Below the pieces are notes generated by a model. It was given only the letters and a program-made list of their open reading frames with translations. It was not told where the DNA came from and did not search any database. Both the position numbers and the translations under genes were made by a program. DNA of 35,288 nt, from the UHGV virus genome UHGV-0246164; one strand, written 5' to 3'. Below are positions 1 through 23,114 of this stretch, in pieces. Each line of letters opens with the position of its first letter. The first letter of the stretch is position 1. Source of the stretch: a virus.

Positions 1-182
1 CCGATCCACAGACCGAGGATGTCGAGCTGCACACCGACCGCCGTATCGATATCGAAGGCTGTTACAAGCCCTGACATAGTGCTGGACACATCAATCAGCG
101 GGCGGGTGCTCAGATCTATATGGTCAAAAAAGAGTGGCTTGGTAGCATGGTAGTTAGTGATCAGTTCGGTGTATTTGCTCAT
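1..182 (-). CDS. Tail/baseplate protein, N-terminal part (ORF runs off the window start); possibly gpI/DUF2313-like
   Basis: Minus-strand ATG at 182-180 (MSKYTELITNYHATKPLFFDHIDL...), stop-free to position 1. ATGA overlap with the stop of the upstream baseplate J-like gene. Product inferred from position only. Confidence 0.45.
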   Translation of the reverse strand, partial: MSKYTELITNYHATKPLFFDHIDLSTRPLIDVSSTMSGLVTAFDIDTAVGVQLDILGLWI

Positions 183-1378
183 GAGGTCACCGTGATAGTG
201 ACGTGACTCGCAACGCATGACGCAGATTCGTCATAAGCAATATCGATATTTCCGCTTGCGACTGAGTCAGAGGATTTGCCGATGAGCAGCTCCTGAATGT
301 CGTAATAGCGAGCACTGCCTCCGCTTACCACGCCAAGGTTTGCCGGGGAATAAATACGACTCAGCAGAACGTCATCGCCAATTGCCAGGCCATTTATATA
401 ATCGGCAACAGCCTGTTTTATCTGCTCGCCGATTTGAGATGTATACCCGGTAAAAACTTTCAGGGTAATGGCTACGAAAATTGGCACATCGGTAGAGCGC
501 GAAAAACTGATGACGTGTGGATTACCGTAAGTATCCGGCACCGTGACAGAAGTTTTACCGTAAGTTGCGGTTCCCTGCCCTTTACTCCCCCGGATTGTTT
601 GGGCTATCTCGGTAACATCCCCTCCATCGACGATGGCGGAAATAGAGTGTGGCGGCAGCCCGTTGCTGTCGGTTGCCCCAGTGTCGTTCTCATATAGTTT
701 GTGACGTGTCACGCCAGCAACATTAGCGATAGCACCGTCGACACCTTCAAACGGTGTGATCGATGGTAGCGCGACGCTTTGCCCCTGCCGAATGCGCAGC
801 TCTGCGTCGGTTTCGGCTGGTGAACCGACAGTAGCCGCAACTGGATTGGTTACCGACACCCAACCTCGGGTCGGGGTGTTGATAGTGGTAATAGTCCCGG
901 CCAGCGCCGCAACCGAACCGCTATTCGCACATGTGGCCGTCACCAGCACAGTACCATCAACGCCGATCGCCACACTCGCTGGAAAATTCCAGATAATGCC
1001 GTTTTTATCCCGTGCGGAGCCATTCGTGATAGTCGTGCCTGCCGTACCGGTTAACAGAAGGTCAGCAGTAGATTTTGTCGCTACTTTTCGCGTGATCCCG
1101 TTAATTTTTACATTGTTGCTAAGCGCTGCGGCCTGCGCTGTCGTCGGTGAAAAAGAGTTGTAGATCCCGATAGCGGTGTTGTTAGCGTCATGCACGGCAA
1201 GAGCCACCAGCGCGACCATCTGCCCGTCTTTGCTGTCTGGTTCGAGGTAGGCATCACTACCGTAAATCTGCCTGAAATAGCTGGTCAGTGTATCTAGGAT
1301 TGTCTGGTAATCAGGCGCACTAATCCCCTGGGCGGTTACCGTTGCCGATAGCCCCAGCGTGTCGAGGTTCAAAGCCAT
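179..1378 (-). CDS. Baseplate J-like protein (P2 gpJ / Mu gp47 family)
   Basis: 399 aa ORF. Size, composition and position after a gpW-like gene fit the baseplate J family. Tightly packed with neighbours. Confidence 0.65.
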   Translation of the reverse strand: MALNLDTLGLSATVTAQGISAPDYQTILDTLTSYFRQIYGSDAYLEPDSKDGQMVALVALAVHDANNTAIGIYNSFSPTTAQAAALSNNVKINGITRKVATKSTADLLLTGTAGTTITNGSARDKNGIIWNFPASVAIGVDGTVLVTATCANSGSVAALAGTITTINTPTRGWVSVTNPVAATVGSPAETDAELRIRQGQSVALPSITPFEGVDGAIANVAGVTRHKLYENDTGATDSNGLPPHSISAIVDGGDVTEIAQTIRGSKGQGTATYGKTSVTVPDTYGNPHVISFSRSTDVPIFVAITLKVFTGYTSQIGEQIKQAVADYINGLAIGDDVLLSRIYSPANLGVVSGGSARYYDIQELLIGKSSDSVASGNIDIAYDESASCVASHVTITVTS

Positions 1379-1732
1379 TTATGCCTCGCTTGTTACAGTC
1401 GTCTGGCCGTAGATTGTGTCAATGGAGGAAGTGAAAGTGACGCGGCGGCTGGTGCCGTCATAATTGGTATCGAAGGAAAGAATCGACAGAACGCCCGGCG
1501 TGTCCTGAATGCGTTCGCGTATAGCCAGGATGTAGACGTCTGACCGCTGTTTCCCAAGCACTGACTGAACATACGGCGTGCCTTCCGTCAGATCGAGAAA
1601 CCACTGACCGCGCCACAGTTCGAAACGGGTTTTTACGGCCTGGGCGACACATTCCGGACTGTCGATAAGGAAGGTGTCATCACCCTGCCCGAAAGTGTAA
1701 TCGCCTTCAGTATCTTCGCGACGGTATCGCAT
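1379..1732 (-). CDS. Baseplate wedge protein, gpW / Mu gp46-like
   Basis: 117 aa ORF immediately between the spike-like and J-like genes, with 1-nt gene junctions. Assignment by size and synteny. Confidence 0.5.
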   Translation of the reverse strand: MRYRREDTEGDYTFGQGDDTFLIDSPECVAQAVKTRFELWRGQWFLDLTEGTPYVQSVLGKQRSDVYILAIRERIQDTPGVLSILSFDTNYDGTSRRVTFTSSIDTIYGQTTVTSEA

Positions 1733-2472
1733 TATTGCGGCCCTCCGGTAGTTCCCCCGCCAGTCTGTACTCCGCCATGTTTATGCGTGGCGACACTGAT
1801 ACCAGAAGCTGTTACGTCATTCGTTACCGTCACCGGCCCAAGCATCGTCGCAGTACCGCCGCTTTCGCCCATTCCCTGAGACAGATTGCCATTAATCGTT
1901 ACGTTGCCGTTCAGCGTGATAGTCGGGGATGTGATTGTCGTTCCACCTTCAGCCGTAGCCGTGAGCTGGCCCGGTGTTTGAACGGTGATGTTATGTCCTG
2001 CGGCAACCTCTACGAACGCCGCACCATCATCGGTTCGCAGCTGCGCGGCGCTGGTACTGATACCGCTGATTTTCTGTGCTTGCGACTGCGGGCCAACGAT
2101 GGCGAACGCATCAGATAAGTCATGCTGTCGCGGATCGACGGTCTCCTGAACGCCGCCGCTCTGCCACCAGAAATCGATGCAACGGTCGGCAAAGATCAGT
2201 AGGCACTCGTCGCCTTCTTTTACCGGAAAGGTCAGCGTGCAACCGCCGCCGCGCGGGAAGATAACCGGCACATCCACCAGCGGTTTTAATTCGGTAGAGC
2301 CATCGCCAACAATACCGCGAAGCGCTACCTCTACTGTGCAGGTAACAGTGTCAGGATCGAACGACTGAATGATGCCTGGCATCGCTACGCGCATCTGGGT
2401 AGACACCGAATCGGCTATGGCCTGCGCGGTCTGCTGCTCGCCGCCGATCTGTGATTGAGTTGGAATTGGCAT
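1732..2472 (-). CDS. Baseplate central spike protein (gpV / Mu gp45-like) with Gly/Thr-rich C-terminus
   Basis: 246 aa ORF with a Gly/Thr-rich tail (...TGGGTTGGPQ). GGAG Shine-Dalgarno 7 nt upstream of ATG at 2472. Position in the baseplate cluster. Confidence 0.5.
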   Translation of the reverse strand: MPIPTQSQIGGEQQTAQAIADSVSTQMRVAMPGIIQSFDPDTVTCTVEVALRGIVGDGSTELKPLVDVPVIFPRGGGCTLTFPVKEGDECLLIFADRCIDFWWQSGGVQETVDPRQHDLSDAFAIVGPQSQAQKISGISTSAAQLRTDDGAAFVEVAAGHNITVQTPGQLTATAEGGTTITSPTITLNGNVTINGNLSQGMGESGGTATMLGPVTVTNDVTASGISVATHKHGGVQTGGGTTGGPQ

Positions 2473-2483
2473 AAAAACTCCAT

Positions 2484-2508
2484 AAAAAAACCCGCTCGGC
2501 GGCGGGTT
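2484..2508 (-). terminator. Intrinsic terminator closing the Phd-like/Doc moron
   Basis: On the minus strand: AACCCGC-cgccga-GCGGGTT followed by TTTTTTTATGGAGTTTTTAT. Lies between the doc stop (2531) and the spike gene start (2472). Confidence 0.6.
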
Positions 2509-2530
2509 GTGTACAATTTACTTTTTGCTA

Positions 2531-2938
2531 TCAGTAGCCAGTTATCGTATCTGCCAGCAGCTCATTCTTATAATCTGACAAAAGTTTAAGCGCCAAAGCA
2601 GTGTTATCGCAGTCGGCCTCTCCCGTAGCAGCAAAGATGGTCAGCTTGACTAACTCCATTGAGGTATTCAGTTCATAGCCATTCAAAAGCAAAAACACGC
2701 TGGCGGCCTGGAAAGCCGTTCGCTTATTGGCGTCATTAAAAGCGTGAGACTTCGCTATCGCAACCATGTACATAGCTGCAAATTTAAATAAATCCTCACA
2801 TCCTTCATACATGCGTAAGTTATCGACGCGATTGAGGGCACCTTCGAGTTTTCCCCGGTCTGGTTGTCCGCTATTTGGCAATGTGCTCTTCTGAATAGCG
2901 ATGACCTCATCTACCGAAAGGAATGTAATCTCAGTCAT
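2531..2938 (-). CDS. doc: Doc (death-on-curing) family toxin, Fic/Doc fold
   Basis: 135 aa ORF containing the Doc signature H-x-F-x-D-A-N-K-R (HAFNDANKRTAF). TAATG one-nucleotide overlap with the upstream antitoxin-like ORF. Confidence 0.8.
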   Translation of the reverse strand: MTEITFLSVDEVIAIQKSTLPNSGQPDRGKLEGALNRVDNLRMYEGCEDLFKFAAMYMVAIAKSHAFNDANKRTAFQAASVFLLLNGYELNTSMELVKLTIFAATGEADCDNTALALKLLSDYKNELLADTITGY

Positions 2939-3351
2939 TACTTATCTTCCAGTTTTTTTATGATGTCCGCATGCTTGGTCTGAGTATGTTGCAGAGCTTT
3001 GATAAATGACTCAGACACGCCCTGCAAAGCAACTGCTGCATTAGTGGCCTTCATCATAGTCTGGCGAGCCTCATCAGACTGAAGAAGGGCATCCAATTGC
3101 TTAGTAAGCTTCATGACACCCTCCGTTATCTGTGGTGACAAATTCGATGCAATTAATTGCGCAAGATGCGTGTCTATTGTTTTCGCAGATGTTTTTACCT
3201 CATCTGCGGAAGCGATTTCATCAACTGATTTTGCACTGATGACAAGGTCGGGCTTTCCGCGCTGCGTAACTGTGACGCTTTCACCAGAGCGTAAACAGTC
3301 CAGCGTTGCAGATAAATCCGATCGCATTTGCGTGTAAGTAATGATTTTCAT
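2938..3351 (-). CDS. Phd/YefM-like antitoxin with a long C-terminal extension
   Basis: N-terminus MKIITYTQMRSDLSATL...VTQRGKPDLVISA resembles the Phd/YefM fold. Preferred start is ATG at 3351 with a GAGGG Shine-Dalgarno (the track ORF begins at 3369). About 137 aa against roughly 73 for canonical Phd. Confidence 0.6.
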   Translation of the reverse strand: MKIITYTQMRSDLSATLDCLRSGESVTVTQRGKPDLVISAKSVDEIASADEVKTSAKTIDTHLAQLIASNLSPQITEGVMKLTKQLDALLQSDEARQTMMKATNAAVALQGVSESFIKALQHTQTKHADIIKKLEDK

Positions 3352-3362
3352 GGCACCCTCTC

Positions 3363-3374
3363 TGTACATGTACA
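3363..3374 (-). promoter_or_regulatory. Perfect 12-bp palindrome TGTACATGTACA upstream of the Phd-like start; candidate autoregulatory operator
   Basis: Palindrome read directly from the sequence, about 12 nt upstream of ATG 3351 in an AT-rich stretch. Phd-type antitoxins are known to bind palindromic operators. Confidence 0.4.
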
Positions 3375-3433
3375 GATTAGTGCATAATAAAAACGCGAGA
3401 TCAACGATTATTGATGTTTAAGGATGCGGATCA

Positions 3434-3784
3434 TCATTTCACCTTCACGCAGTCGTATGTTGCATACTGACGCGGCGCATCCATGCTGGCTTGCAACCAC
3501 TGTGCGTTGAGAATGGCTTTGCCGTTGCGCTTGATGTACTCAAGCCCAACCCAGCGGCCGGGTTGGTCGGTTGCAACCATCCATTCTGCTTTCATGTTTT
3601 GGTAGTCATCTTTAGACTTGAGAAAAGACATTTTTTGCGTTTCAGGTTTTACCCCGTTAATAAGCATTAGTCCTTCTTTGCCCGCAGTGAGGCGATACGG
3701 CCCGCACTGAGTATCAGCTAAGGCCTCTGACGTGCCGACAACTGATAAAAGAACACCACAAATTAGAAGTTTGGCCTTACCCAT
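3434..3784 (-). CDS. Small secreted (periplasmic) protein of unknown function
   Basis: 116 aa ORF with an N-terminal signal peptide (MGKAKLLICGVLLSVVGTSEALA then DTQCG) and a second Cys near the C-terminus. Overlaps the hub gene stop by 22 nt. Looks lower in GC than the flanks by eye. Confidence 0.55.
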   Translation of the reverse strand: MGKAKLLICGVLLSVVGTSEALADTQCGPYRLTAGKEGLMLINGVKPETQKMSFLKSKDDYQNMKAEWMVATDQPGRWVGLEYIKRNGKAILNAQWLQASMDAPRQYATYDCVKVK

Positions 3785-4851
3785 CTTATACCTGCCATTT
3801 TTTTAAGCGTGTCCTGACTAACCATGTCACGAGCACCACGCGCAAAACACATCAAATCCATGTACCACGCCTGACCTCTGGTGTCGCCAGTATAGTCGAT
3901 AGCTTTGACGATATAAACGCCATCTGTCGCAATGCTGGCAGCCTGTGACGTTGTGCCGGTCAGTACGCGGTTGCCGTTCTCTTCCGTTTCAGTGATACGC
4001 CCGGGCGACTGTGCGATTTCGCTATTGCCGAGCGCGGCGCGGTACACCGAAGCCTGATCGAGCTGGATAAGACCATTAATGCGGATGTTTGGGTTTATCA
4101 GGCACCGCACGTTTACGCCGCCGCCCATTGTCTGTTGCGGCATACCGATCAGGCCAGTATTGGCATTCAACACAATGGCTTCGTGAATATATTTATCCTC
4201 CGGCACCATCTGGACCTGACCATCCACCAGTTGCCATGTCGCTTTGCACTGCGCAGCAATATTATCCATCACGTTGCGGCTGGATGAGTAAATCGCGCGG
4301 CCACGAGGAAACACGGTATCAGGAAAATCGCCGGTAATGCCCTGTGTCACGCCGAACGCGTTGAAATCCTGCATCGTCGCCCGGTGCAGATCCGCAACGG
4401 TATAGCCAGCGGCAAGCGTGGTGATGGTGGTCGCATAGAGGAACGCTTCGTGATCACCAATGGCCTGAATCAACACCCAGGAATCCGTAATGTTGTCCTT
4501 CCCGGTGACGGTGAAGCGAATATCACCGTCAAAAATCAGGCCGTAGTTCTGACCGTTCACCTGCCCTATCTGGTCTGGTGAAATCTCCCGGGACACACCA
4601 ACCTGGCTCGCATCAACATCCGGCGCTATACCGTCATACCCGGCAATGATGCGAATTTTGGCAAACTCCTGCCCAAGTATCTTGTTCGTGGTATCGGTCG
4701 AAAGGTTGTAAATTTTCACGTTCGCCACGCGCGGCCAGCTTGTGTCTGCCCACTCGATCTGGAACGTGACCTTAAAATCAGACAGGGAAACGCCCTGCCC
4801 GTTCTGGTCCAACAGTTGCAGCTCAAAATGGCGCATCCAGTTAAGAGACAT
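3763..4851 (-). CDS. Baseplate hub protein (P2 gpD / Mu gp44-like)
   Basis: 362 aa ORF downstream of the tape measure and two small tail genes. Assignment by synteny in a myovirus-type tail module. Confidence 0.5.
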   Translation of the reverse strand: MSLNWMRHFELQLLDQNGQGVSLSDFKVTFQIEWADTSWPRVANVKIYNLSTDTTNKILGQEFAKIRIIAGYDGIAPDVDASQVGVSREISPDQIGQVNGQNYGLIFDGDIRFTVTGKDNITDSWVLIQAIGDHEAFLYATTITTLAAGYTVADLHRATMQDFNAFGVTQGITGDFPDTVFPRGRAIYSSSRNVMDNIAAQCKATWQLVDGQVQMVPEDKYIHEAIVLNANTGLIGMPQQTMGGGVNVRCLINPNIRINGLIQLDQASVYRAALGNSEIAQSPGRITETEENGNRVLTGTTSQAASIATDGVYIVKAIDYTGDTRGQAWYMDLMCFARGARDMVSQDTLKKMAGIRWVRPNF

Positions 4852-4853
4852 TT

Positions 4854-5159
4854 CTACTCCTGTACGAAAATGAGGTGGCTGTATGTGCCGAGGTTGGTTT
4901 TGGTGGGCTCGTCCGGTGCGCCTACATCGCAGCCAACGAGCAGCGCCCCGTTAATACCTAGTTGAGGATATTGCTCAAGAAGATTTACACCGGTTACCAG
5001 CGGCACGCCAGAAAGAAGCGGTTCGCCACTGCTATCTTGTACATCCAGAATCCAGCCAGCAGAATCACGCCAAATGACTCTCAGCGTGTATGTTGTCTCT
5101 GCTAACTGAATGCGAAATAGCTGGTTATCCGGCGATAAAGGGATTTCAGTTACATTCAT
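4854..5159 (-). CDS. Tail/baseplate assembly protein (putative)
   Basis: 101 aa ORF packed between the tail genes, ending 3 nt before the hub start. Confidence 0.4.
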   Translation of the reverse strand: MNVTEIPLSPDNQLFRIQLAETTYTLRVIWRDSAGWILDVQDSSGEPLLSGVPLVTGVNLLEQYPQLGINGALLVGCDVGAPDEPTKTNLGTYSHLIFVQE

Positions 5160-5193
5160 TGGATACCTATAGAGTTACCAAGACTGGTTCCTT

Positions 5194-5781
5194 TTAGTCC
5201 ATCAAACCACTTGTTGACTTAATTACCGATTCATTTACTGGGGTGGTGGATTTAGTCCCGGAATTCTGCACCGCAGATGTACTAACCCCGTCCTGCATAT
5301 CGGATTTATCAGCAACGGTGACATTTTTTGTATGCGTTATGATGACTTCACGCAGGGTAAGCGTGCAGTTCAGCACGTTCTCGCTGGTTTTATCGGTCGT
5401 CACCTCAATGGCTCGCACCAGCATATTGGTGTACACCCTCTTCCCGGTAACCACATCGAACGGTACGCGCTCAAGCTGCATATCCAGCAGCTTTTGGTAT
5501 GTCTCCTTTGGGCTAAGCCCAGCGCTAAGACCGATTGAAGATGTATCAATGAAATCCAGCAACGAACCGCCACCAGCGAAGCCGCATTCCATTGTGACTT
5601 CGCTGGGACGCTTATACGCATGATCGGCGATGAAACCCGACGCGCTATTCGTTGTTGGTTTTTCCACCGGGTGCTCAGTAATTTCGAGCGCATCAGAATG
5701 CTTTTCAGAAACAACCACGCTGGGAATTAATATGCCAATTCGCCGGGATTGCCGGCGAAAAATAGCGGAGAGAATATCCAT
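5194..5781 (-). CDS. Tail protein (putative; Mu gp43 position)
   Basis: 195 aa ORF whose start overlaps the tape measure stop (TAATG). Confidence 0.4.
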   Translation of the reverse strand: MDILSAIFRRQSRRIGILIPSVVVSEKHSDALEITEHPVEKPTTNSASGFIADHAYKRPSEVTMECGFAGGGSLLDFIDTSSIGLSAGLSPKETYQKLLDMQLERVPFDVVTGKRVYTNMLVRAIEVTTDKTSENVLNCTLTLREVIITHTKNVTVADKSDMQDGVSTSAVQNSGTKSTTPVNESVIKSTSGLMD

Positions 5782-7784
5782 TAGCTCGGCACCGTTCGAA
5801 GTTGTTGAGTTAGTTGTGAATTAACGTTCTTCTGCCGCTCAACTGTGATATTGGCAGCCTCACGTGGATCAGATACACCGTGAATATTAATAACCGTTTC
5901 TTGCTGTATGTTTTGTGAAGCACCGCCACCAGCGGCCATACGAACCAATTCACTTGGGTAAGGGTTTCTCCCGTTCTCATGATGGATAATTCCATTCATC
6001 AGAGAGGACATTACCTGCGGATCTTTAAGGTTGAGAATGGCATCAGGAGCCACACCCATCATTTTCGATAACTGAGCAATGTAAGCACCGGTATTATTTT
6101 CATTCCCCGGTGCCCACGTAGAGATTATATCGTTAAGGGTTTGCAGCGGCTTGCCTGTCGTCTTACCTTCAAAGTAGCGCATTAATTGTCGGGAAAGCGC
6201 TTTCAGGCCATCATAGGCAGTTTCAAACCGGGCGAACCTGCCGCCAGGCCTTTCGAGCGTCGCCCCAGATTGCCCACGAAAGTCGATATTACCGGGGTTA
6301 TTATTTCTAATACCTCGTGGAGCTTTAGCAGACTGGGCATGTTGGTCAGGCTCATCATCACCGAACCAGCCGCGCACCGTTCGGCCCACGCTGCGAGGAT
6401 CGAATCCCCAGTGCTCTTTAATCCAGTCGGCGGTACCGTTGGCGCTGTCTGTTACCATCGGCATCGCTGACGGATTTTCGCTGCCCTGATTAAGCATCTG
6501 TTTGCCGATGCTGGCGGCATCAGCCCAGCGGCCATCTTTAATGGCGTTGAGCAGGTCGGCGATCATGTTCAGCATTTTGCTGAACTCACCCATCTGGTCA
6601 ATGAAGTTGCTAAAATCCCACTTTAGGGACCATGACTTGGGGTCAATACCGAGCAACTTAGCCAGCGCTTTTGTCAGGTCCGTAACAGTCTTTTTCAGGT
6701 CACCAATCATTTTGACGGCCTGATCAATTTCAGTCTTCCATTTCCCCCAGTCAATCAGGCTTTTGCCACCTTCTTTCCACGTCTGGTAATCATCCAAGAG
6801 CAGACCAAGTGCAATAATAAGCGTCGTTATCATGCCCAAGGGTGATGACATGAAAGCGGTATTTAGCAGCCGCCATGCAACCAACAGCCCACTGAACAAT
6901 GCGATAAGCTGCTGCGTGGCTGGGTTCAGCTTTTTGAACCAGGCGATCACACCCTCAACAGCTTGCCCAGTTCGCCATAACACGCGGGTAATCGCGTCAC
7001 CTGCCCAGAGAATTCCTTTGATGATCTTCGTGATGACCGCTTCAATCTTCGGCCAGTTGTCGAGTATCTGCCTGCGGAAGTTATCAATACTGCCAGCAAG
7101 GCCACCAGCTAGGTTAGAGCCAATCTTGTCTTTCGCCTGTCCAAGCGTCATCGTCAGATTACGCATGGAGGTCATGAAAATATTGGACTGTTTAGCCGCT
7201 GACTCAGCATTAAAACCAATACGCTTTGCCGTCAACGCGTACTCAGAACTGAGCTGCCCCATCCCTCTGCGCATCGCCATCAGCGTGTTTTCATCGATGC
7301 CGAGCATCTGCGCGTATTGTTTCGCGCGGTAATACGGCATGTTGTTGAGCTTTTGCCCAACGCCAGTAAAGATGGCCGCAGTATCACGCATCTTTCCGCT
7401 GGCATCGCGAGTCTGTACGCCCAGACGGTTCAGGAACCCTTCCGCCCCCGGATTGCTACGCATGAAGCCAGCCAGCCCTTCTAGGGAAGACATAGCCGAC
7501 TCAGCGCTGGCACCGGTTTGCGATGCGGCATAGCCCAGCGCTTTGATGCCCTGGACGCTGGCCCCCGTCCGCTGGGATGCCCAGTAAATTTTATCCAGAC
7601 CATTCGCAATCTGGGTGGTAAATCCGACAATGCTCAGCGCTGCGCCTTCCACCACCGCGCCGACCTTCAGAACGTTCGCGGTAACGCCTTTCAGCACAGC
7701 TTCGAACTTATTAGCGCCAGCCTGATCGATATCGAACCCCAGCGAAACAAGGAAGTCTTTAATCGTATCTGCGTTACCGCTCAT
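5781..7784 (-). CDS. Tail tape measure protein
   Basis: 667 aa ORF with Ala/Gly-rich helical composition and a hydrophobic central segment. Sits directly downstream of the frameshifted chaperone pair. Confidence 0.7.
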   Translation of the reverse strand: MSGNADTIKDFLVSLGFDIDQAGANKFEAVLKGVTANVLKVGAVVEGAALSIVGFTTQIANGLDKIYWASQRTGASVQGIKALGYAASQTGASAESAMSSLEGLAGFMRSNPGAEGFLNRLGVQTRDASGKMRDTAAIFTGVGQKLNNMPYYRAKQYAQMLGIDENTLMAMRRGMGQLSSEYALTAKRIGFNAESAAKQSNIFMTSMRNLTMTLGQAKDKIGSNLAGGLAGSIDNFRRQILDNWPKIEAVITKIIKGILWAGDAITRVLWRTGQAVEGVIAWFKKLNPATQQLIALFSGLLVAWRLLNTAFMSSPLGMITTLIIALGLLLDDYQTWKEGGKSLIDWGKWKTEIDQAVKMIGDLKKTVTDLTKALAKLLGIDPKSWSLKWDFSNFIDQMGEFSKMLNMIADLLNAIKDGRWADAASIGKQMLNQGSENPSAMPMVTDSANGTADWIKEHWGFDPRSVGRTVRGWFGDDEPDQHAQSAKAPRGIRNNNPGNIDFRGQSGATLERPGGRFARFETAYDGLKALSRQLMRYFEGKTTGKPLQTLNDIISTWAPGNENNTGAYIAQLSKMMGVAPDAILNLKDPQVMSSLMNGIIHHENGRNPYPSELVRMAAGGGASQNIQQETVINIHGVSDPREAANITVERQKNVNSQLTQQLRTVPS

Positions 7785-8387
7785 TGGCCGCTCTCCATTT
7801 ATCTACCCGGGCGTCGTTATCCTCGCGCATGTCGAGGTAGTCATTGAGAAGCGCGATGCGGCAAAGGTCTACCGCACCGCTGTTAAGGTCTTTCTGGTCA
7901 ATATGGAAGGCAATCGCCGGACGAAGAATAAAATCTTCACCGCCCGGCAGGCTGTTGAAGGTTATTCCGCTGGCGGGGTGGGCGTCTCGCTGGTAGGGAG
8001 TCCTTGCAAAAAATTTCCCAGCGAGTCGGCGACCACCCGCGCCACCAGTTGCAGCATGGTCAGCAGGTCGATATCGTCAAACGCCATTTCGCCATGCTGG
8101 CATACCGGCACCCAGCCTTTCATGTGCTCGCGTGAAACAACGGAAAGGCAGGGGAACAGGATAGCGTCCACATCGCCATCACTCAGATCGGACACAGCAT
8201 TAGCAATTTTGGGCAGGATAGTAGCCATCGCGCCTTCGGTGTCTTTGCTGCTGATCTTCTCCTGAACGCTCCGGAAGTCAGAAACCATCCCGGCCAGCAC
8301 CGGCAACAGCTTTCGGGACACCTTCAGCTGTTCGAAAACGCTGAGCTTTGCAGTGCGATATTTCACGCCTTTAATTTCGAATTCCAT
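7774..8387 (-). CDS. Tail assembly chaperone, -1 frameshift-extended form (G-T-like)
   Basis: From the heptamer at 8013-8007 the -1 frame is open for about 78 codons (...HPASGITFNSLPGGEDF...VDKWRAANER). It stops at TAA 7776-7774, overlapping the tape measure start. Confidence 0.5.
7962..8387 (-). CDS. Tail assembly chaperone (short form, G-like)
   Basis: 141 aa ORF between the tube and tape measure genes. Contains the slippery heptamer T-TTT-TTG (8013-8007) about 45 nt before its stop. Confidence 0.6.
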   Translation of the reverse strand: MEFEIKGVKYRTAKLSVFEQLKVSRKLLPVLAGMVSDFRSVQEKISSKDTEGAMATILPKIANAVSDLSDGDVDAILFPCLSVVSREHMKGWVPVCQHGEMAFDDIDLLTMLQLVARVVADSLGNFLQGLPTSETPTPPAE

Positions 8388-8390
8388 GCG

Positions 8391-8831
8391 TTAAAACTCC
8401 CCGAGCAGCTGGTCAATCTTGCCGCAGTCGAACACCCAGGCAACAGTCCCGCCCTCTTTGGCGTTATTGAAATCAGGCTGTTTCTGGAATGCACACGAAC
8501 GCGCAGTAGAAATATCACCCGATGCCGTGTTGCGAATGACGATCACGTTATTGCCCCAGGTGGCAGAGGACTGGCTTTGCGCGTTATACGCCAGAGACAG
8601 CTTCTTGTTCACGGGGGAGGTTTTCAGCAGCGTCACCGTAATGGTGCCTGACTTATCGGCGTGCAGGCTGTGCATCACTTCGCCATCGGCACCGATGGTC
8701 ATGGTGTTCTTGTTGCCGCCCATGGTCTGGGTGATACCTTCCTCAGAGTTCGCAGAACCCTGACCAAGATCGATAACGCCGGTCGGCCCGGTGAGCGACG
8801 CGGTTACATCGAGAAAAGAATAAGTTGCCAT
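8391..8831 (-). CDS. Tail tube protein
   Basis: 146 aa ORF immediately downstream of the sheath-like gene, typical size and position. Confidence 0.6.
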   Translation of the reverse strand: MATYSFLDVTASLTGPTGVIDLGQGSANSEEGITQTMGGNKNTMTIGADGEVMHSLHADKSGTITVTLLKTSPVNKKLSLAYNAQSQSSATWGNNVIVIRNTASGDISTARSCAFQKQPDFNNAKEGGTVAWVFDCGKIDQLLGEF

Positions 8832-8841
8832 TTATCGCTCC

Positions 8842-10002
8842 TTAGCGAACCACGTTGATCTGCACATCGGCATAATGAACTGCGCCAGCCAGCTTACAGG
8901 CCACCTCGATTAACGGTGCTTTGCGCGCTTCGCGGTCGGCCTGCGCCTGTTCGGACAGCGGTTGCGCATACACGTAATAGCCTTTGGTCAGCGTATCGCC
9001 GGAATTCAGCTGTCCGATAGGGCCACCATTCCACACGCCAGCCGCTACCAGACCGTTCGTGACGGACTGATCCATGGACTGTTCAACGTTGGAAAGCAGA
9101 CGGGTCACACCGGCATCAGTCTGCGGAATTTTGGTGGTGCTGGTGTAAAGCAGGTTATAGAGGTTGGTCTGAACGTAGTTCTGCAACCAGTCGAGCCCGT
9201 GGCGCTCGTCGAAGAAGTCACCGTTCGCCATGACACCCTGTTGCAGGATCGCCGTGTCGTTGGCGTAGTACACGAACACGTTCGCATTCTTCGCATCCAC
9301 AGCCGCCGCCTGTCCTACCGTCAGCGTTTCGTAGGTTACGCTCGGTTCCTGTTTGAATTTCAGGGTAATGGTGGTATTGCTGCCGTTGAAATTGACAGTA
9401 AACGCGCGACCGAAAGCTGAAACCGCCGCATAAGGGCTGCTGGTGGAATATTGAATAAAGGTACGGGAATACTTACCGGCCTTTAATTTAGACGCAACAT
9501 CGGTCGTCGAAGTCGTGCTGATGATCTCAGCGTCGGCTGACGTTACCCCGAAAATGCGGCTCAGGCTGGACGCTTCGATGAGTTTAGCAACCTCAATCAC
9601 GTCGTCAGCATCAAGCACATCATCGCCATCAGCAACATCATCAGCGACAACCAGCCCATACCAGTTGGTATACTGCAGGCAGGCATTAACAGCTTGCACG
9701 ATGGTTTCCACGCTTCCACCTTCGGAAGAGGTCAGCGTCTTCGCCCAGCGACCAACATAAACCTGTGTCGGCTTCGGTGACTGGCTGAAGAAAACCTGCG
9801 CTGCTTTATATTCCGGGCTGTCGACACCGAAGTCTTCGCCAATGTCCTCAACGGAAGCATATAGGCGAGTACGTTCTGTCACCGGAATGACAGTGGAAGA
9901 GCCAAGTATTAGCAATGCGCCGAAGTTACGACCAGTAGCCGCTTTCGGCGAGATGATCACATCAACGTTTACAACGTTGGATACAGGTAAGCCCTGCGTC
10001 AT
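8842..10002 (-). CDS. Tail sheath-like protein (DUF3383-type)
   Basis: 386 aa ORF followed by tube, chaperone and tape measure genes, the contractile-tail gene order. Confidence 0.55.
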
Positions 10003-10005
10003 AGT

Positions 10006-10611
10006 TTATTCTCCAAAAAAGGTGACTGGCGCTTCCACCAGCGATTTGATGCCATACTCGCGGACAACCTTCCGGCGCAGTCGCACCGTCATGTCGTAAC
10101 GGCGAACCCATTGCTGGTTGATAAGTTCGGGGAAAGGGGTCAGAGCGGTATAGTCGCCAAGGGATAAACCAAGCGCGTTCAGCTCAGCATTGTTTTGCGG
10201 GACAGATATACCATCGCGAAAACGGGACGCATAAGACATACCAGCCGGGCCGTAGAACGACGCCATGCACTCGAACGCTTCATGCCGCCAGAGCTGAGCG
10301 CCCTCTTCAGTCTGCCCGGTGAATGCAGGGTTGTTATCAATGAGCAACCCGGTAACGCCAAACGCGCACCAGTTCGTTTCAACGGGTGGCAGTGGCGGCT
10401 GATTTTTCTGCCAGCGCGGACGAACCATTCCAGACGGCAAGCCGGAAACATTGCGCATCCACTGGCTTAGCAGCCTGTCGAGCGCTTCGTCATAAGCCGG
10501 ATCTCCGCCGGTGGGTGTCAGCCATCCGAGCTCTGTACTGGTGTTATTGCTCAACGGGAGTTCCCCCATCAAACGGCAGTAATTCACAATGCGCCTGGAC
10601 AAAGCCAGCAC
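10006..10611 (-). CDS. Neck / tail-completion protein (putative)
   Basis: 201 aa ORF between head genes and sheath. Start uncertain because it overlaps the upstream ORF. Confidence 0.35.
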   Translation of the reverse strand: MLALSRRIVNYCRLMGELPLSNNTSTELGWLTPTGGDPAYDEALDRLLSQWMRNVSGLPSGMVRPRWQKNQPPLPPVETNWCAFGVTGLLIDNNPAFTGQTEEGAQLWRHEAFECMASFYGPAGMSYASRFRDGISVPQNNAELNALGLSLGDYTALTPFPELINQQWVRRYDMTVRLRRKVVREYGIKSLVEAPVTFFGE

Positions 10612-10933
10612 CGTAAGCTGTGTACGGGTCGACGAATGTCACACGATAATCACGGCTCTGGTACGTCACGATATCGGCATCACGGCCAGCCTGCCCCTGC
10701 GTCAGCCTCTCAGTCGTCACGATGAGAATCGCGCCACTGATAACCTGCCCGGCCTGCATGCGGCGGTTTTCCAGAGAGCGGTCAACAGTAACAACCCCGG
10801 CAAACTGCGTTTTAACTTCGCTGTCGCTGCCGATCCCGTCATCGTCCACCGTTTGCGCGCGACGCGTTACCCACAAATTGAAGTCGCAAAAATCGGGGTC
10901 AAAAAGCACGTCTGTTACATCAAGACTCGGCAT
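10544..10933 (-). CDS. Head-tail connector protein (putative)
   Basis: 129 aa ORF in the head-tail joining block. Start uncertain. Confidence 0.35.
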   Translation of the reverse strand: MPSLDVTDVLFDPDFCDFNLWVTRRAQTVDDDGIGSDSEVKTQFAGVVTVDRSLENRRMQAGQVISGAILIVTTERLTQGQAGRDADIVTYQSRDYRVTFVDPYTAYGAGFVQAHCELLPFDGGTPVEQ

Positions 10934-11474
10934 CTTTATCCCTCACAATATGGGTAATAGCTCTGCGATATTGCCCGGTGTCGATTAGCGGTTTCACCAG
11001 ATCGGTTCCAGGAGACTCACCAGCAGCGCGCCGCGCAAGTTCCTCTTTTGCCCCTTTGCGCCCACGGCGTGCGCGTGCTTCAACGGTGCTATCAGCAAGC
11101 GGTGTAAAGCCGGTAATGGTCATGTAACGCCTGACGCCATTCGCGGCCAGCGTTCCGGCGCGGTTAAGCGCTCTTTCCGCACCCGCCGCATTTCCATCAA
11201 GCGCAGCCTGCGCCGCTGCTTTGAGCTGCGGCACCGTCTGTTCCTCTACGGATTTAACGCCGGGGATCAGGTGCGGGCGTGGGGGTATGTTTTGCGCTGG
11301 TGAGCCGTATTCGTTGACGTAACCGATCCCGGCATTACCAAACGGAACATCCTCACGCTCGCTGTCTTCTTCCGGGATGCCCACCAGCACATCCTTTTTG
11401 GTTAGCGACCGGAGCGCATCCAGAATGGCCTGAGCGTTATCAACCCTCGTTGTTACACCACTTTTGAAACTCAT
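10920..11474 (-). CDS. Head-tail joining / head completion protein (putative)
   Basis: 184 aa ORF with 4-nt overlap with the upstream gene. Confidence 0.35.
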
Positions 11475-11878
11475 AGCTGGCGACCGCCCGCACCGAACAT
11501 CGTGATCAGCTGATAAAATTCAGCGCCATATCGGGTGTTATTCCAGAAGCCTGCGTCAGGGTTTAGCGTCGCGCTGGTGTCATAGCTGACGCTTACCTTG
11601 TCAACGGACTTGGAGGACTGAACACCATTGGTTGAGCCACCCGAGCCGCCGACGAGCATTGCCCGGCTATCTGCCGCCCAGAGCGTCATGTAGTGAGCCA
11701 CGAACAACTCGACAAAGTACGGAAACAACTCTTTGCCGGTGACGTTTTCGCTCAGCAGCACATCAGCCAGATTCAGACGAAACTGGATTTGTGCTTCGGG
11801 ATATTTGGCAGGGTCAGCAAACTGTGGAAAGTCGCGCCGAAAATCACTTACTGTTGGCAGGCTTTGATTCTTTGGCAT
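11471..11878 (-). CDS. Head-tail adaptor protein (putative)
   Basis: Track ORF begins at 11977. An internal ATG at 11878 (MPKNQSL...) shortens the overlap with the upstream gene from about 134 nt to about 35 nt. Confidence 0.35.
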
Positions 11879-12233
11879 CTTTCGCCCCATTACCGCCAGT
11901 CTGGGCGGCAGCAATCTGCGCTTGCAGGCTGTCGTTCTGCTCTTGCAGCTTGAGCAGCGCTTCTCGCAGATCGGCAATCAACTGATCTTTATCGATAATC
12001 TGCTTATCTTTGTCGGCAATCTGAGCTTGCAGGCTGTCGATAATGGGTTGCAGATCATCGGTGTCGCTAATCACGCTTTCGGAAAGCTCGGAGTGCGCCT
12101 GGGTGAACCAGTGCGACGCGACCTCTTCCGGTACGTTATGCCGTCCCCGGCCAAACTCCCTTTTTGACTGATCGCCGAGCGTCAGCGTAAACGGGGTGTG
12201 AACATGGATGGTAACCAGCTTTTCTTTCGCCAT
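11844..12233 (-). CDS. Coiled-coil structural protein (putative)
   Basis: 129 aa ORF downstream of the major capsid gene with a heptad-like Gln/Ala/Leu-rich C-terminus. Confidence 0.35.
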
Positions 12234-12274
12234 TTTCAGTTCCCTTCTGGCCCCTTTCGGGGCCGTTCTGGTTA

Positions 12275-13216
12275 TCAGATACCGTCCACGTAGGACAGGG
12301 TTTCTTTGTACACTGGCTCAACCGCACCGAGCTTGCCGTAGTAGGTCGCAATCTGATACAGACCGCGATACTGGACAGGAACGCTCTGCAACGGCACCAG
12401 CGGATAGCGCACGTATTTCTTGTCGTTGGTGTAGGCGATCATACGGTCTTTACCGCCAACCCCACGCCCTTTCAGCCATTTGACCGCTTTGATTTCAAGC
12501 GGAACGCCGTTCTGGTGGAAAGCGATAGTGTTCACAGCCAGATAGGTCAGCAGTGACTGGTTACCCGCTTCGGAAACCTTACGGCTCGCCAGCAGTGAAT
12601 ACTGCTCTGGCGGAATGCGCAGATCAGAAGGCACGATGGAATAACCGGATGCTGCCCAGGCATTAGACAGAATGCTGTTCACGCTATCGAGGATCTCGTC
12701 GTTGGTTGAGTTCGCCCAGATCTTCGGCGCGTTGTTCAGCGTCACACCGACGAGGTTTGCCAGACCTTTCAGGCCGAGTGCGTCATCGCCGATGTAAACC
12801 TGCTCGTCGTTGTCCATCTGCCATTTGAGCTGCATCCCGTCGTACTTCTGGGTATCAATCGGGCGACCTACCTGCTGAGCTGCTGCCAGCTCTACAACGG
12901 TCCAGCCCAGTTCCATGCCCCAGAGGTTCAGTGGATTGCCGTCTTTGCTGATATCCACGTTCACGCCAGCAATAGCGGTGGAGTCTTTGCCTACCCAGTT
13001 TTTACCATTCGGATTTGCGCCAGTACCAGCAGCGCCAAAACTGGTGTTAGTCCAGCTGGAAATGTCATCTGCGATAGAAACGTCTTCACGCAGCTGAATA
13101 TCGCGGGTCCAGGTGTAACCCACCAGCGGCAGGTTCAGCGTCTGGTCGAGTCGCTCCAGCTCCCCGATGAGAAAGGCACCAGAGCTATCAACGGTTGCCT
13201 GATCAAAAGTAATCAT
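12275..13216 (-). CDS. Major capsid protein
   Basis: 313 aa ORF in the canonical position after portal, protease/scaffold and a small decoration-like gene. Confidence 0.6.
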   Translation of the reverse strand: MITFDQATVDSSGAFLIGELERLDQTLNLPLVGYTWTRDIQLREDVSIADDISSWTNTSFGAAGTGANPNGKNWVGKDSTAIAGVNVDISKDGNPLNLWGMELGWTVVELAAAQQVGRPIDTQKYDGMQLKWQMDNDEQVYIGDDALGLKGLANLVGVTLNNAPKIWANSTNDEILDSVNSILSNAWAASGYSIVPSDLRIPPEQYSLLASRKVSEAGNQSLLTYLAVNTIAFHQNGVPLEIKAVKWLKGRGVGGKDRMIAYTNDKKYVRYPLVPLQSVPVQYRGLYQIATYYGKLGAVEPVYKETLSYVDGI

Positions 13217-13227
13217 TCGTCTGTTCC

Positions 13228-13731
13228 TTAAATCTTCCAGGAGATTTCTGCATTGCCGTTAGCGTCACCGGCCCCTGTGAATTCGGCGTTGGTCAGCGCC
13301 ACGTTTTTGCCACTGACGGACGTGGACATGAAGCCGCCCAGCGGCACTTTGATGGATTCATCAGTGGAGACGACAACGTATACCGGGTCGCCTTTTTTGA
13401 TGGTGCTGGCATCAAAATCAGAACCGAGATTAACGGTCATGTAGCCACGCTTCATGGCGTCACCCGGGAAGTTCTTATCCGTCCCCACCTGGCGAACCAT
13501 GTCTGGCTGCGATGTGGTCGGATACGGACGAACGTAGATCCCCTTCACCTTGTCGGCGGTGTCACCGTCCGCCAGCGGCACGAAAAAGCCGTCAGCGTCA
13601 TATTTGCCAGCCAGACCATAGGCAGCGAAGGCGTTAGCGGATTTAAGGATCACCGGTTCGACGGTTAAGTCCTGCGGGCGAGAGATAGCCCCGCCAATGC
13701 CAACAGGCATCCGGAACAGATATGCAGTCAT
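13228..13731 (-). CDS. Head decoration / structural protein (putative)
   Basis: 167 aa ORF between the scaffold/protease and major capsid genes. Confidence 0.4.
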   Translation of the reverse strand: MTAYLFRMPVGIGGAISRPQDLTVEPVILKSANAFAAYGLAGKYDADGFFVPLADGDTADKVKGIYVRPYPTTSQPDMVRQVGTDKNFPGDAMKRGYMTVNLGSDFDASTIKKGDPVYVVVSTDESIKVPLGGFMSTSVSGKNVALTNAEFTGAGDANGNAEISWKI

Positions 13732-13735
13732 TGGA

Positions 13736-14956: not shown

Positions 14957-14970
14957 GGTTTACCTGCGAT

Positions 14971-19160: not shown

Positions 19161-19191
19161 AAATCACCATTCGTCTTATACAGTCCAGTAT

Positions 19192-19830: not shown

Positions 19831-19833
19831 GAG

Positions 19834-22625: not shown

Positions 22626-23114
22626 CTATGCTACATGTTTAATTTTCTCTACACGTTTCCGATTTTTAAACGCACTATCCAGAACCGGGTAAATCATAAA
22701 CAACGAGGCATTGAGGATTTCGTCAACTTCCCGTCGACAGGTTGCGAGCGATGGTTTTTGAATGCGCCCGCCGCCCCGGCATAACATCTTGCGAGGTCTT
22801 GCGACGCGATGATAGTAAGATGCAATGGCATGCTTGGAAGATCCATGAGCGTAGTAGCTGAGGAGGATGCCAAAGGCTTTCTTGTCAATGTACATGACGG
22901 AATCGACGACCTGAGAAATCAACATTCCATCATCATCATTACACATTGGCCTTGTCATAACTCTTCCCGGCTCTACGCTCTCCATGAACTTCGCTATTAC
23001 GCTGCTCATGCGCTTTTCCAGACGACCTGAATAAACCCATGCGCCCCACAGTTCAAGCCAGCCATTCAGCCAATCGTGCTGTTCTTTGGTGAGGTTTAGT
23101 TCTCTTATGCTCAT
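22626..23114 (-). CDS. Q: Late antiterminator Q (Phage_antitermQ family, phage 21/82-type, not lambda-type)
   Basis: 162 aa with WLELWGAW and RPMCNDDDGMLIS motifs characteristic of this Q family. Lies directly upstream of the late promoter region and lysis genes. Confidence 0.7.
   Translation of the reverse strand: MSIRELNLTKEQHDWLNGWLELWGAWVYSGRLEKRMSSVIAKFMESVEPGRVMTRPMCNDDDGMLISQVVDSVMYIDKKAFGILLSYYAHGSSKHAIASYYHRVARPRKMLCRGGGRIQKPSLATCRREVDEILNASLFMIYPVLDSAFKNRKRVEKIKHVA

What the first reader, a model, noticed from the sequence alone, without database searches (positions are those of the whole stretch)
2473..3790. Low-GC moron inside the baseplate gene cluster: secreted protein plus Phd-like/Doc pair with its own operator and terminator
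Seen in sequence: between the hub gene (3763-4851) and the spike gene (1732-2472) sits a three-gene block on the late strand: a signal-peptide protein, a Phd-like antitoxin and a Doc toxin with an intact HxFxDANKR motif. A perfect palindrome TGTACATGTACA lies just upstream of the antitoxin start, and a strong intrinsic terminator sits between doc and the spike gene. By eye the block is AT-richer than the tail genes. Established knowledge: Phd/Doc is a type II toxin-antitoxin pair from P1, and morons with their own promoter and terminator often carry lysogen-benefit or defence functions. Inference: an autonomous cassette expressed in the lysogen, possibly an abortive-infection or prophage-stabilisation module.
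Basis: partly seen in the sequence, partly recalled or inferred. Interest (0 to 1): 0.65.

Follow-up and report, generated by a model that had tools for sequence, protein, structure and literature searches.

The report
Phd-Doc toxin-antitoxin cargo in prophage baseplate
A two-gene toxin-antitoxin pair of the well-known Phd/Doc kind sits as swappable cargo in a variable slot between two baseplate genes of a lambda-like prophage; the parts are real and neatly organised, but it is an ordinary member of a known class and its benefit to the host is untested.

Summary
The sequence features are real. On the minus strand lie a signal-peptide ORF (3434-3784), a 137-aa Phd-like antitoxin (2938-3351) and a 135-aa Doc toxin (2531-2938, motif HAFNDANKR). 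A perfect palindrome precedes the antitoxin and a hairpin plus T-run follows doc. The pair is 44% GC against 54% for the tail genes.

Comparison with relatives changes the picture in three ways.
- Only the 925-nt phd-doc unit (2509-3433) is the variable insert. The secreted protein is a conserved gene of this tail module.
- The terminator belongs to the slot, not to the cassette. It was found in 76 of 77 related loci, including one with an empty slot.
- The slot is a cargo hotspot with at least 24 alternative low-GC contents, among them a second, unrelated Phd-Doc pair.

The palindrome is invariant upstream of every full-length homologue, down to 33% antitoxin identity, and shares the TGTACA core of the phage P1 phd operator. 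That makes it a credible autoregulatory operator. Doc is under strong purifying selection (dN/dS 0.02-0.05).

Verdict: a functional-looking, self-regulated Phd/Doc module carried as a moron, already named as such in RefSeq. Lysogen expression and a defence or addiction role remain inference. Interest is modest.

The parts
2509..3433 (-). The exchangeable cassette proper: promoter/operator region, antitoxin gene, doc gene and 3' untranslated stretch.
   Evidence: Homology to relatives with other cargo is lost at about 3436 and regained at 2495-2508. GC is 44.3% against 54.2 +/- 3.1% in the structural region. The cassette is 100% identical in E. coli ABWA45, although ORF A differs there.
3399..3404 (-). 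Putative -35 element, TTGATC.
   Evidence: A TTGnnn-17 nt-nCTAAT geometry is kept in the window and five diverged cassette lineages although the spacers differ. The strict consensus scan did not call it. This is inference.
3376..3381 (-). Putative -10 element, ACTAAT, abutting the operator.
   Evidence: Same as for the -35 element. It lacks the consensus A at position 2, so it is a weak promoter. Inference.
3361..3376 (.). Operator: the perfect 16-nt palindrome TCTGTACATGTACAGA (core TGTACATGTACA at 3363-3374).
   Evidence: Unique in the window, with 0.04 expected. Invariant, 15-20 nt (palindrome end to start codon) upstream of the antitoxin ATG in every locus with a full-length antitoxin, down to 33% identity and in unrelated contexts. 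Absent where the antitoxin lacks the Phd N-domain. Shares the TGTACA core of the P1 phd operator TGTGTACACA.
2938..3351 (-). Long Phd-type antitoxin, 137 aa. Residues 1-39 form a Phd/YefM-like DNA-binding domain. About 40-113 is a variable, partly disordered, helical middle. Residues 114-137 form a nearly invariant C-terminal helix (SFxKALQHTQTKHADIIKKLEDK).
   Evidence: Pfam PF02604 28.3 bits (gathering score 29.8). hhalign to P1 Phd residues 1-45 gives 92.6% probability. AlphaFold2 model. Family alignments A1/A2. dN/dS 0.12-0.17.
2531..2938 (-). Doc toxin, 135 aa (Fic fold). The catalytic motif H65-AFNDANK-R73 is encoded at 2720-2746.
   Evidence: TIGR01550 81.3 bits, Pfam Fic 45.4 bits, phrog_577 E 1.5e-33. 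P1 Doc structure 3K33 at E 7e-20. dN/dS 0.02-0.05.
2484..2508 (-). Intrinsic terminator: 7-bp stem, 6-nt loop and T7 run, directly before the spike ribosome-binding site (GGAG, 2478-2481).
   Evidence: An equivalent hairpin plus T-run is present in 76 of 77 related loci, with 18 different hairpin sequences and also in an empty slot. It is therefore a feature of the slot.
3434..3784 (-). ORF A, a conserved secreted small beta-barrel protein. It is a neighbour of the cassette, not part of it. Its conserved 3' half forms the left edge of the slot.
22626..23114 (-). Q-family antiterminator gene, upstream on the same strand. It would let late transcription read through the slot terminator.
   Evidence: PF06530 E 1e-24. 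The holin gene at 21678-22001 is on the same strand. Read-through itself is inferred from lambda biology.

Best explanation
Window 2509-3433 is a bicistronic, self-regulated type II toxin-antitoxin operon of the Phd/Doc kind. It is carried as exchangeable cargo (a moron) in a terminator-bounded hotspot between a conserved secreted-protein gene and the baseplate spike gene of a lambdoid-regulated, contractile-tailed prophage.

Proposed working
- A weak sigma-70 promoter (TTGATC-17-ACTAAT) is overlapped at its start site by a 16-bp palindrome.
- Antitoxin dimers bind the palindrome through their N-terminal Phd/YefM-like domain and repress the operon.
- The antitoxin's nearly invariant C-terminal helix holds Doc inactive.
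- When the antitoxin is no longer replenished, free Doc phosphorylates EF-Tu and stops translation.
- In the lysogen the cassette transcript ends at the slot terminator. During lytic growth, Q-modified polymerase reads through it.

Shown here: gene content, family membership of Doc, homology of the N-domain to Phd, conservation of the operator, the cassette boundaries, variability of the slot, and purifying selection.

Inferred: DNA binding, neutralisation by the C-terminus, the kinase target, lysogen expression, and the benefit. I cannot discriminate between abortive infection against superinfecting phages and retention of the prophage or cassette.
For: - Doc: it scores above the curated cutoffs, carries the motif HAFNDANKR, and aligns to solved P1 Doc at E 7e-20.
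- Coupling: the stop and start codons overlap as TAATG.
- Operator: the palindrome is unique in the window. It is invariant in all 12 distinct full-length homologous cassettes, down to 33% antitoxin identity, including sites after a Q-like antiterminator gene. It is lost exactly where the N-domain is lost. P1's phd operator sits in the same place (-10, palindromes, SD) with the same TGTACA core.
- C-terminal motif: it is the only antitoxin part kept next to Doc in every lineage, including short Xenorhabdus antitoxins.
- Selection: dN/dS is 0.02-0.05 for doc and 0.12-0.17 for phd. Synonymous divergence is lower than in every flanking tail gene, so the cassette was exchanged between diverged tail modules.
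- Hotspot: at least 24 cargo classes in 77 loci, one empty slot, and the terminator in 76 of 77.
- Late operon: Q antiterminator and holin lie on the same strand.
- Doc as an EF-Tu kinase and Phd-C as the neutralising element: PMC10440598.
Against: - No experiment or transcript data were available. Toxicity, neutralisation, DNA binding and lysogen expression are all unmeasured.
- The promoter is weak and the strict consensus scan did not call it.
- The antitoxin N-domain falls just under Pfam and TIGRFAM cutoffs.
- Its C-terminus shows no detectable homology to the Doc-binding helix of P1 Phd.
- A complex model could not be run.
- The two TGTACA cores abut (6 bp apart) instead of lying 13 bp apart as in P1, so the binding stoichiometry may differ.
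- No established defence system model matches; there are only weak hits to candidate systems.
- One assembly carries a truncated 125-aa Doc.
Confidence: 0.75

Rival explanations
1. One reading: all three genes (secreted protein, antitoxin, Doc) form one autonomous moron that brought its own terminator.
For: The three genes are contiguous on one strand between the hub and spike genes. ORF A is somewhat lower in GC (49%) than the tail genes.
Against: ORF A is present next to the hub gene in relatives carrying quite different cargo. Homology breaks at its stop codon. The ORF A family has 91 clusters, all of the same size. The terminator is present with every cargo and in the empty slot. The cassette is 100% identical in ABWA45, while the 5' half of ORF A differs there.
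Confidence: 0.07
2. Role A: the cassette is an abortive-infection defence. A superinfecting phage shuts off host transcription or degrades the antitoxin, Doc is freed, translation stops and the invader fails, which protects the lysogen population.
For: It lies in a cargo hotspot of a prophage late operon with several other two-gene and small-protein cargoes. Two independent Phd-Doc lineages occupy the same slot. The antitoxin middle region is hypervariable, as might be expected of a sensing surface. Doc gives weak hits to candidate defence families (PDC-M59B, E 1.9e-6). Toxin-antitoxin systems are increasingly found in phage defence (PMC10440598).
Against: There is no match to an established defence system. 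The literature searches retrieved no demonstration of Phd/Doc-based defence. There are no phage-challenge data.
Confidence: 0.35
3. Role B: the cassette is an addiction module, as in P1. It penalises loss of itself, or of the prophage region, by excision, deletion or replacement of the slot cargo. It persists for that reason without benefit to the host.
For: Phd/Doc is the classical P1 addiction module, and this pair has the same architecture and operator core. Doc is highly conserved while the surrounding genes are mosaic. The identical antitoxin is indexed in 944 blocks of the public collection, and all eight places shown (from 24 contigs read) lie in this slot.
Against: The prophage is chromosomal, so segregational loss is rare. 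Only 6 of 5426 complete E. coli genomes carry a cassette of this family, while 56 carry the tail module, so it does not dominate the slot.
Confidence: 0.3
4. The pair is a decaying or inert passenger: Doc is inactive, or the operon is silent.
For: The promoter is weak. One assembly has a truncated Doc.
Against: The catalytic motif is intact and the genes are full length. dN/dS is 0.02-0.05 over dS of 0.6-1.5. Operator, SD and overlapping stop/start are invariant across lineages.
Confidence: 0.07

Closest known systems
Phd/Doc addiction module of bacteriophage P1 (Doc = Fic-fold kinase of EF-Tu; Phd = Phd/YefM antitoxin)
   Same: The gene order is antitoxin then toxin, with an overlapping stop and start. 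Doc is 41% identical over 114 residues and carries the same FNDANKRTA motif. The antitoxin N-domain is homologous to Phd residues 1-45. The operator lies between the -10 and the SD and contains the same TGTACA core. Both are phage-borne.
   Different: The antitoxin is 137 aa rather than 73. It has a variable insert of about 70 residues and a C-terminal helix with no detectable similarity to Phd 52-73. The operator is one 16-bp palindrome made of two abutting TGTACA hexamers, not two sites 13 bp apart. It sits in an integrated prophage's baseplate operon rather than on a plasmid prophage.
Morons of lambdoid phages (extra genes in the late operon with their own promoter and terminator; Juhala/Hendrix concept, cited in bioRxiv 10.1101/2024.10.15.618418)
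   Same: It is present in some close relatives and absent in others. Its base composition deviates from the flanks. It lies in the late operon and ends at an intrinsic terminator. A Q antiterminator is encoded upstream.
   Different: The terminator is a constant of the slot and is present without cargo. The promoter is inferred only.
Cargo or defence hotspots in prophage tail regions, such as the P2 Z/fun hotspot next to a baseplate gene (Rousset et al.; described in 10.1101/2024.10.15.618418)
   Same: A fixed position between conserved tail genes holds many alternative accessory genes (at least 24 classes).
   Different: The phage group and position differ (hub/ORF A to spike). None of the cargo sampled here matches an established defence system.
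Modular antitoxins with a 'Phd-C' neutralising element joined to other domains (PanA-Phd-C:Doc of Corynebacterium doosanense, PMC10440598)
   Same: A short C-terminal helical element is the constant partner of Doc, while the rest of the antitoxin varies or is missing.
   Different: Here the partner domain is a Phd/YefM DNA-binding domain plus a variable middle, not Panacea. Neutralisation by the C-terminus is not demonstrated.

Membership tests
Doc toxin (TIGR01550 DOC_P1; Fic/DOC PF02661) | Profile match above the curated cutoff | tested here: met
   TIGR01550 scores 81.3 bits against 38.65. PF02661 scores 45.4 against 24. phrog_577 'Doc-like toxin' has E 1.5e-33.
Doc toxin (TIGR01550 DOC_P1; Fic/DOC PF02661) | Doc-type active-site motif H-x-F-x-[DN]-[AG]-N-K-R (as opposed to the Fic AMPylase motif HxFx[DE]GNGRxxR) | tested here: met
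   H65-A-F-N-D-A-N-K-R73. It aligns column for column with P1 Doc H66-R74 and is invariant in 11 homologues.
Doc toxin (TIGR01550 DOC_P1; Fic/DOC PF02661) | Full-length similarity to an experimentally solved Doc | tested here: met
   3K33, 3DD7 and 3KH2 (P1 Doc) at E 7e-20 to 1e-18 over residues 7-120.
Doc toxin (TIGR01550 DOC_P1; Fic/DOC PF02661) | Toxicity through phosphorylation of EF-Tu | not testable with these tools
   This needs expression and phosphoprotein assays. Strong purifying selection (dN/dS 0.02-0.05) argues only that the protein is functional.
Phd/YefM antitoxin (PF02604, TIGR01552) | N-terminal Phd/YefM domain | tested here: inconclusive
   PF02604 scores 28.3 bits, just under the gathering score of 29.8. 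TIGR01552 scores 20.0 against 20.8. However, hhalign of the family to P1 Phd residues 1-45 gives 92.6% probability, and the model has the beta-alpha-alpha-beta-beta layout. It is probably a divergent member.
Phd/YefM antitoxin (PF02604, TIGR01552) | C-terminal toxin-binding segment homologous to Phd 52-73 | tested here: not met
   hhalign aligns only residues 1-45. MAFFT places F116 under Phd F56, but that is not significant. A Phd-C-like role is inferred from the conserved helix and its constant pairing with Doc.
Phd/YefM antitoxin (PF02604, TIGR01552) | Gene directly upstream of, and coupled to, its toxin, with a palindromic operator at its promoter | tested here: met
   TAATG overlap. The 16-bp palindrome is conserved in all full-length homologues and shares its core with the P1 operator. 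Binding itself was not tested.
Moron (autonomous extra gene unit in a phage late operon) | Present in some close relatives and absent from others at the same position | tested here: met
   The tail module is in 56 E. coli genomes; only 2 of them carry this cassette in near-identical form, and 6 genomes in all carry a cassette of this family. There are at least 24 alternative cargoes and one empty slot.
Moron (autonomous extra gene unit in a phage late operon) | Base composition different from the flanking genes | tested here: met
   44.3% against 54.2 +/- 3.1% GC; it is the lowest 925-nt window in positions 1-20000.
Moron (autonomous extra gene unit in a phage late operon) | Own promoter and own terminator; expressed from the repressed prophage | tested here: inconclusive
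   There is only a weak promoter, though its geometry is conserved. A terminator is present but belongs to the slot. Expression cannot be tested here.
Known anti-phage defence systems (PADLOC-DB 2.0) | Match to a model of an established defence system | tested here: not met
   The antitoxin has no hit. Doc has only weak hits to candidate families PDC-M59B (E 1.9e-6), PDC-S23 and PDC-S04.

The most novel reading that the evidence does not exclude
The gap between ORF A and the spike gene is a dedicated, terminator-bounded cargo hotspot of a widespread Enterobacterales prophage tail module. On this reading its contents are lysogen-expressed anti-phage or exclusion functions: two Phd-Doc lineages, HEPN-like pairs, EACC1-like and DUF4236 genes, and secreted proteins. 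In the long Phd-Doc pair the hypervariable middle of the antitoxin would be the sensor that releases Doc on infection. The orphan 'Phd-C only' ORFs found without a Doc in other phages (L046, L030, L033) would be phage-borne anti-Doc counter-defences.
Probability: 0.12. Interest if true: 0.6.

Novelty: new member of a known kind. Interest (0 to 1): 0.3.

Why it matters
If confirmed experimentally, this would be a second phage-borne Phd/Doc system with a different antitoxin build: a DNA-binding domain, a variable insert and a neutralising helix. Its operator is a compact 16-bp site. That would be useful for comparing how this toxin-antitoxin family regulates itself.

The more general point concerns the slot. 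One fixed, terminator-marked position inside a baseplate operon carries at least two dozen alternative small cargoes, most of unknown function. It is a convenient place to look for lysogen-benefit or defence genes in Enterobacterales prophages.

The pair itself is already annotated correctly by RefSeq and is not surprising.

Tried and rejected
Only the antitoxin alone could be modelled, and its quality was moderate (pLDDT 68).
- The strict sigma-70 scan found no promoter upstream of the antitoxin. The promoter I propose rests on conserved geometry only.
- A MAFFT alignment of the terminators (A3) was not in structural register, so no formal covariation count was made. Hairpins were instead folded one by one and counted.
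- Rfam gave only a sub-threshold Trp_leader hit (28.4 bits against a gathering score of 41) on the terminator. I read it as generic hairpin/U-run resemblance.
- No direct or inverted repeats flank the cassette. I therefore rejected transposition in favour of exchange by recombination in the conserved flanks.
- PADLOC gave no established defence hit for the pair or for alternative cargoes.
- Literature searches for the RefSeq accessions and for Phd-Doc as prophage defence found nothing specific.
- The whole-region fold z-score around the terminator was unremarkable (-0.56). The terminator call rests on its canonical form and its conservation.
- I considered and rejected the idea that the cassette is a fixed structural part of the tail module.
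Full report
**1. What is in the sequence**

On the minus strand the order is hub gene, ORF A, antitoxin, Doc, spike gene.
- Hub: 3763-4851, phrog_196 baseplate hub, E 6.7e-84.
- ORF A: 3434-3784, 116 aa.
- Antitoxin: 2938-3351, 137 aa.
- Doc: 2531-2938, 135 aa.
- Spike: 1732-2472, gpV-type N-domain E 8e-42 plus Apex motif.

Doc is unambiguous. TIGR01550 DOC_P1 scores 81.3 bits against a cutoff of 38.65, Pfam Fic 45.4 bits, and phrog_577 'Doc-like toxin' has E 1.5e-33. It aligns to the solved P1 Doc (3K33) at E 7e-20, with HAFNDANKRTA against P1's HIFNDANKRTA.

The antitoxin's mechanical ORF starts at 3369. The real start is ATG 3351, behind the SD GAGGG, as in every homologue and in RefSeq. 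Its stop overlaps the doc start (TAATG). Its first 45 residues resemble P1 Phd: phmmer gives E 0.015 and hhalign of the family gives 92.6% probability. Pfam and TIGRFAM scores fall just under their cutoffs.

The palindrome TGTACATGTACA (3363-3374) occurs once in the window, where 0.04 are expected. It extends to a perfect 16-mer at 3361-3376. A 7-bp hairpin with a T7 run lies at 2484-2508 and folds at about -11 kcal/mol.

The 925-nt stretch 2509-3433 has 44.3% GC. Windows of equal size across the structural region average 54.2 +/- 3.1%, and none is as low. ORF A has 49%.

**2. What relatives show about the boundaries**

The same tail module is present in 56 of 5426 complete E. coli genomes, always chromosomal. 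Only two of them (ECONIH5, ABWA45) carry this cassette in near-identical form. In the annotated relatives examined, the space between ORF A and the spike holds different genes:
- a DUF4236 gene on the opposite strand;
- an EACC1-like ORF on the opposite strand;
- a 210-aa protein;
- a 128-aa signal-peptide protein (in Citrobacter phage Omnitron).

In one further genome (AR_0118) a 374-aa lipoprotein takes the place of ORF A as well.

Homology to the window is lost at about 3436, the ORF A stop, and regained at 2495-2508, inside the terminator. The variable unit is therefore phd-doc alone.

**3. The slot is a hotspot and the terminator belongs to it**

In 77 IMG/VR loci that carry ORF A and a spike gene, the intervening DNA falls into at least 24 classes. 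Lengths run from 65 nt (empty, L099) to 1717 nt, and all classes are low in GC (0.34-0.46). Cargo includes:
- DUF4236 (17 loci);
- EACC1-like ORFs;
- several small secreted proteins;
- a membrane protein;
- two-gene units with a weak HEPN resemblance;
- a P22-type antirepressor;
- a second, unrelated Phd-Doc pair, with a classical 74-82-aa Phd scoring 47.7 bits and a 124-aa Doc.

A hairpin plus T-run lies directly before the spike ribosome-binding site in 76 of the 77 loci, and the 77th has a shorter stem. There are 18 different hairpin sequences, some with compensatory stem changes, and the hairpin is present even in the empty slot.

The window also encodes a Q-family antiterminator (22626-23114) and a holin on the same strand, and a CI-like repressor on the other. 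The standard lambdoid reading is that Q-modified polymerase ignores this terminator during late transcription. That is inference from established lambda biology.

**4. The cassette as a family**

The exact antitoxin sequence is indexed in 944 blocks of the public collection. All eight places shown (from 24 contigs read) are this slot, with mosaic neighbours.

Homologues at 83% and 72% identity (E. coli, Serratia, Klebsiella) sit in the same slot of much more diverged tail modules. For example, Doc is 94% identical where hub and spike are about 52-55%. Synonymous divergence of phd and doc (0.5-1.5) is lower than in all flanking genes, which are saturated or above 2. The cassette was therefore exchanged between diverged phages. 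Selection is strongly purifying: dN/dS is 0.02-0.05 for doc and 0.12-0.17 for phd.

More distant pairs (33-64% antitoxin identity) lie elsewhere, in two lineages just downstream of a Q-like antiterminator gene. No repeats flank the cassette, so exchange by recombination in the conserved flanks (the ORF A 3' half and the spike 5' end) is the likely route.

**5. Operator and antitoxin architecture**

In every locus with a full-length antitoxin, TGTACATGTACA lies 15-20 nt (palindrome end to start codon) upstream of the antitoxin ATG, although the surrounding sequence differs. It is absent from Xenorhabdus loci, where the antitoxin lacks the Phd N-domain.

The P1 phd promoter has the same layout: TATAAT, then TGTGTACACA, TAAC, GAGTACAC, then SD. 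It contains the same TGTACA core. This comparative evidence supports the palindrome as the operator of the N-terminal domain. The difference from P1 is that two TGTACA cores abut here, whereas in P1 the sites are 13 bp apart. PMC13034048 contrasts the dual-site P1 arrangement with a single-palindrome arrangement in Enterococcus.

A TTGnnn-17-nCTAAT arrangement just upstream is kept in the window and five related cassette lineages. It is weak, and the strict scan missed it.

The antitoxin family (A1/A2) has three parts:
- a conserved N-domain;
- a hypervariable middle that differs completely between subfamilies;
- a nearly invariant C-terminal helix, SFxKALQHTQTKHADIIKKLEDK.

The C-terminal helix is the only part always found next to Doc. 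It shows no detectable homology to Phd 52-73, so a Phd-C-like neutralising role is inference by analogy with PMC10440598. The middle-plus-C-terminal region matches only 10 representative clusters among 1.84 billion proteins.

**6. Function and verdict**

The molecular reading, an autoregulated Phd/Doc toxin-antitoxin operon, is well supported by sequence and comparison. All biochemical steps remain untested. Whether it serves abortive infection, retention of the prophage or cassette, or nothing for the host cannot be decided here. PADLOC gives no established system, and the searchable literature holds nothing on these proteins or on Doc-based defence.

RefSeq already names both genes correctly. 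This is a new member of a known kind, in a known kind of place: a moron hotspot comparable to the P2 Z/fun region. The insertion, the operator and the low GC are. Interest is modest. The slot census and the orphan Phd-C ORFs are the more useful leads.

Noticed in passing
window 3763-3810: The hub gene 3' end has one extra T relative to E. coli ECONIH5 (AAAAAAATGGC against AAAAAAAGGC). The hub C-terminus changes from ...KKRQV* to ...KKMAGIRWVRPNF*, and the hub then overlaps ORF A by 22 nt. The last ~60 nt of the hub gene are variable among relatives anyway. This could be real variation or a sequencing indel.
   Followed up: partly
[not shown]
   Followed up: partly
L099 4331-4395 and 76 of 77 loci among L057-L135: An intrinsic terminator sits directly before the spike gene inside the baseplate operon in essentially all relatives, even when the slot is empty (65 nt). 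Why a late structural operon keeps a terminator there is unexplained. It may terminate lysogen transcripts of ORF A or of the cargo.
   Followed up: partly
L072 4334-5105 (also L073, L076, L084, L085, L087, L118): A second, unrelated Phd-Doc pair occupies the same slot: a short classical Phd of 74-82 aa and a 124-aa Doc with HGFNDANKR. Two Doc lineages have therefore been recruited to one hotspot.
   Followed up: partly
L046 5839-6078; L030 5929-6156; L033 5923-6159: Short ORFs end in the invariant antitoxin C-terminus (SEAFxKALLHTQxK[HY]ADIIKALEDK) but have no Doc gene downstream. In L046 the ORF lies between the plug and hub genes of a related tail module. They may be orphan neutralisers, possibly anti-Doc.
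   Followed up: no
L096 4349-5535, L078 4337-5644, L133 4331-5762; L004/L005/L007 slots; L111 4349-6065: Other cargoes of the slot include a two-gene unit (258-261 aa plus 123-131 aa) with a weak HEPN_IX resemblance. There is also a reverse-strand ORF matching EACC1 exactly at the Pfam cutoff (23.6 bits). A P22-type antirepressor occurs together with an Arc-like ORF.
   Followed up: partly
window 2482-2565: There is a sub-threshold Rfam hit to Trp_leader (28.4 bits against a gathering score of 41, E 0.0034) over the doc 3' end and the terminator. It probably reflects only the hairpin and U-run.
   Followed up: no
L051 4414-4791: One E. coli assembly (GCA_017159875.1) carries the identical antitoxin but a truncated 125-aa Doc.
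   Followed up: no
L012 about 22300-35700 (E. coli ECONIH5): In ECONIH5 the related prophage is interrupted between head genes. The insert holds an IS5 and a block with two integrases, a TOPRIM/DUF927 primase, and Icd-like and ash-family genes. It looks like a P4-like satellite inserted into the prophage.
   Followed up: no
window 2511-2517: A further TGTACA core (TTGTACAC) lies between the doc stop and the terminator in the window type. It is not conserved in the 83% homologue, so it is probably chance.
   Followed up: partly
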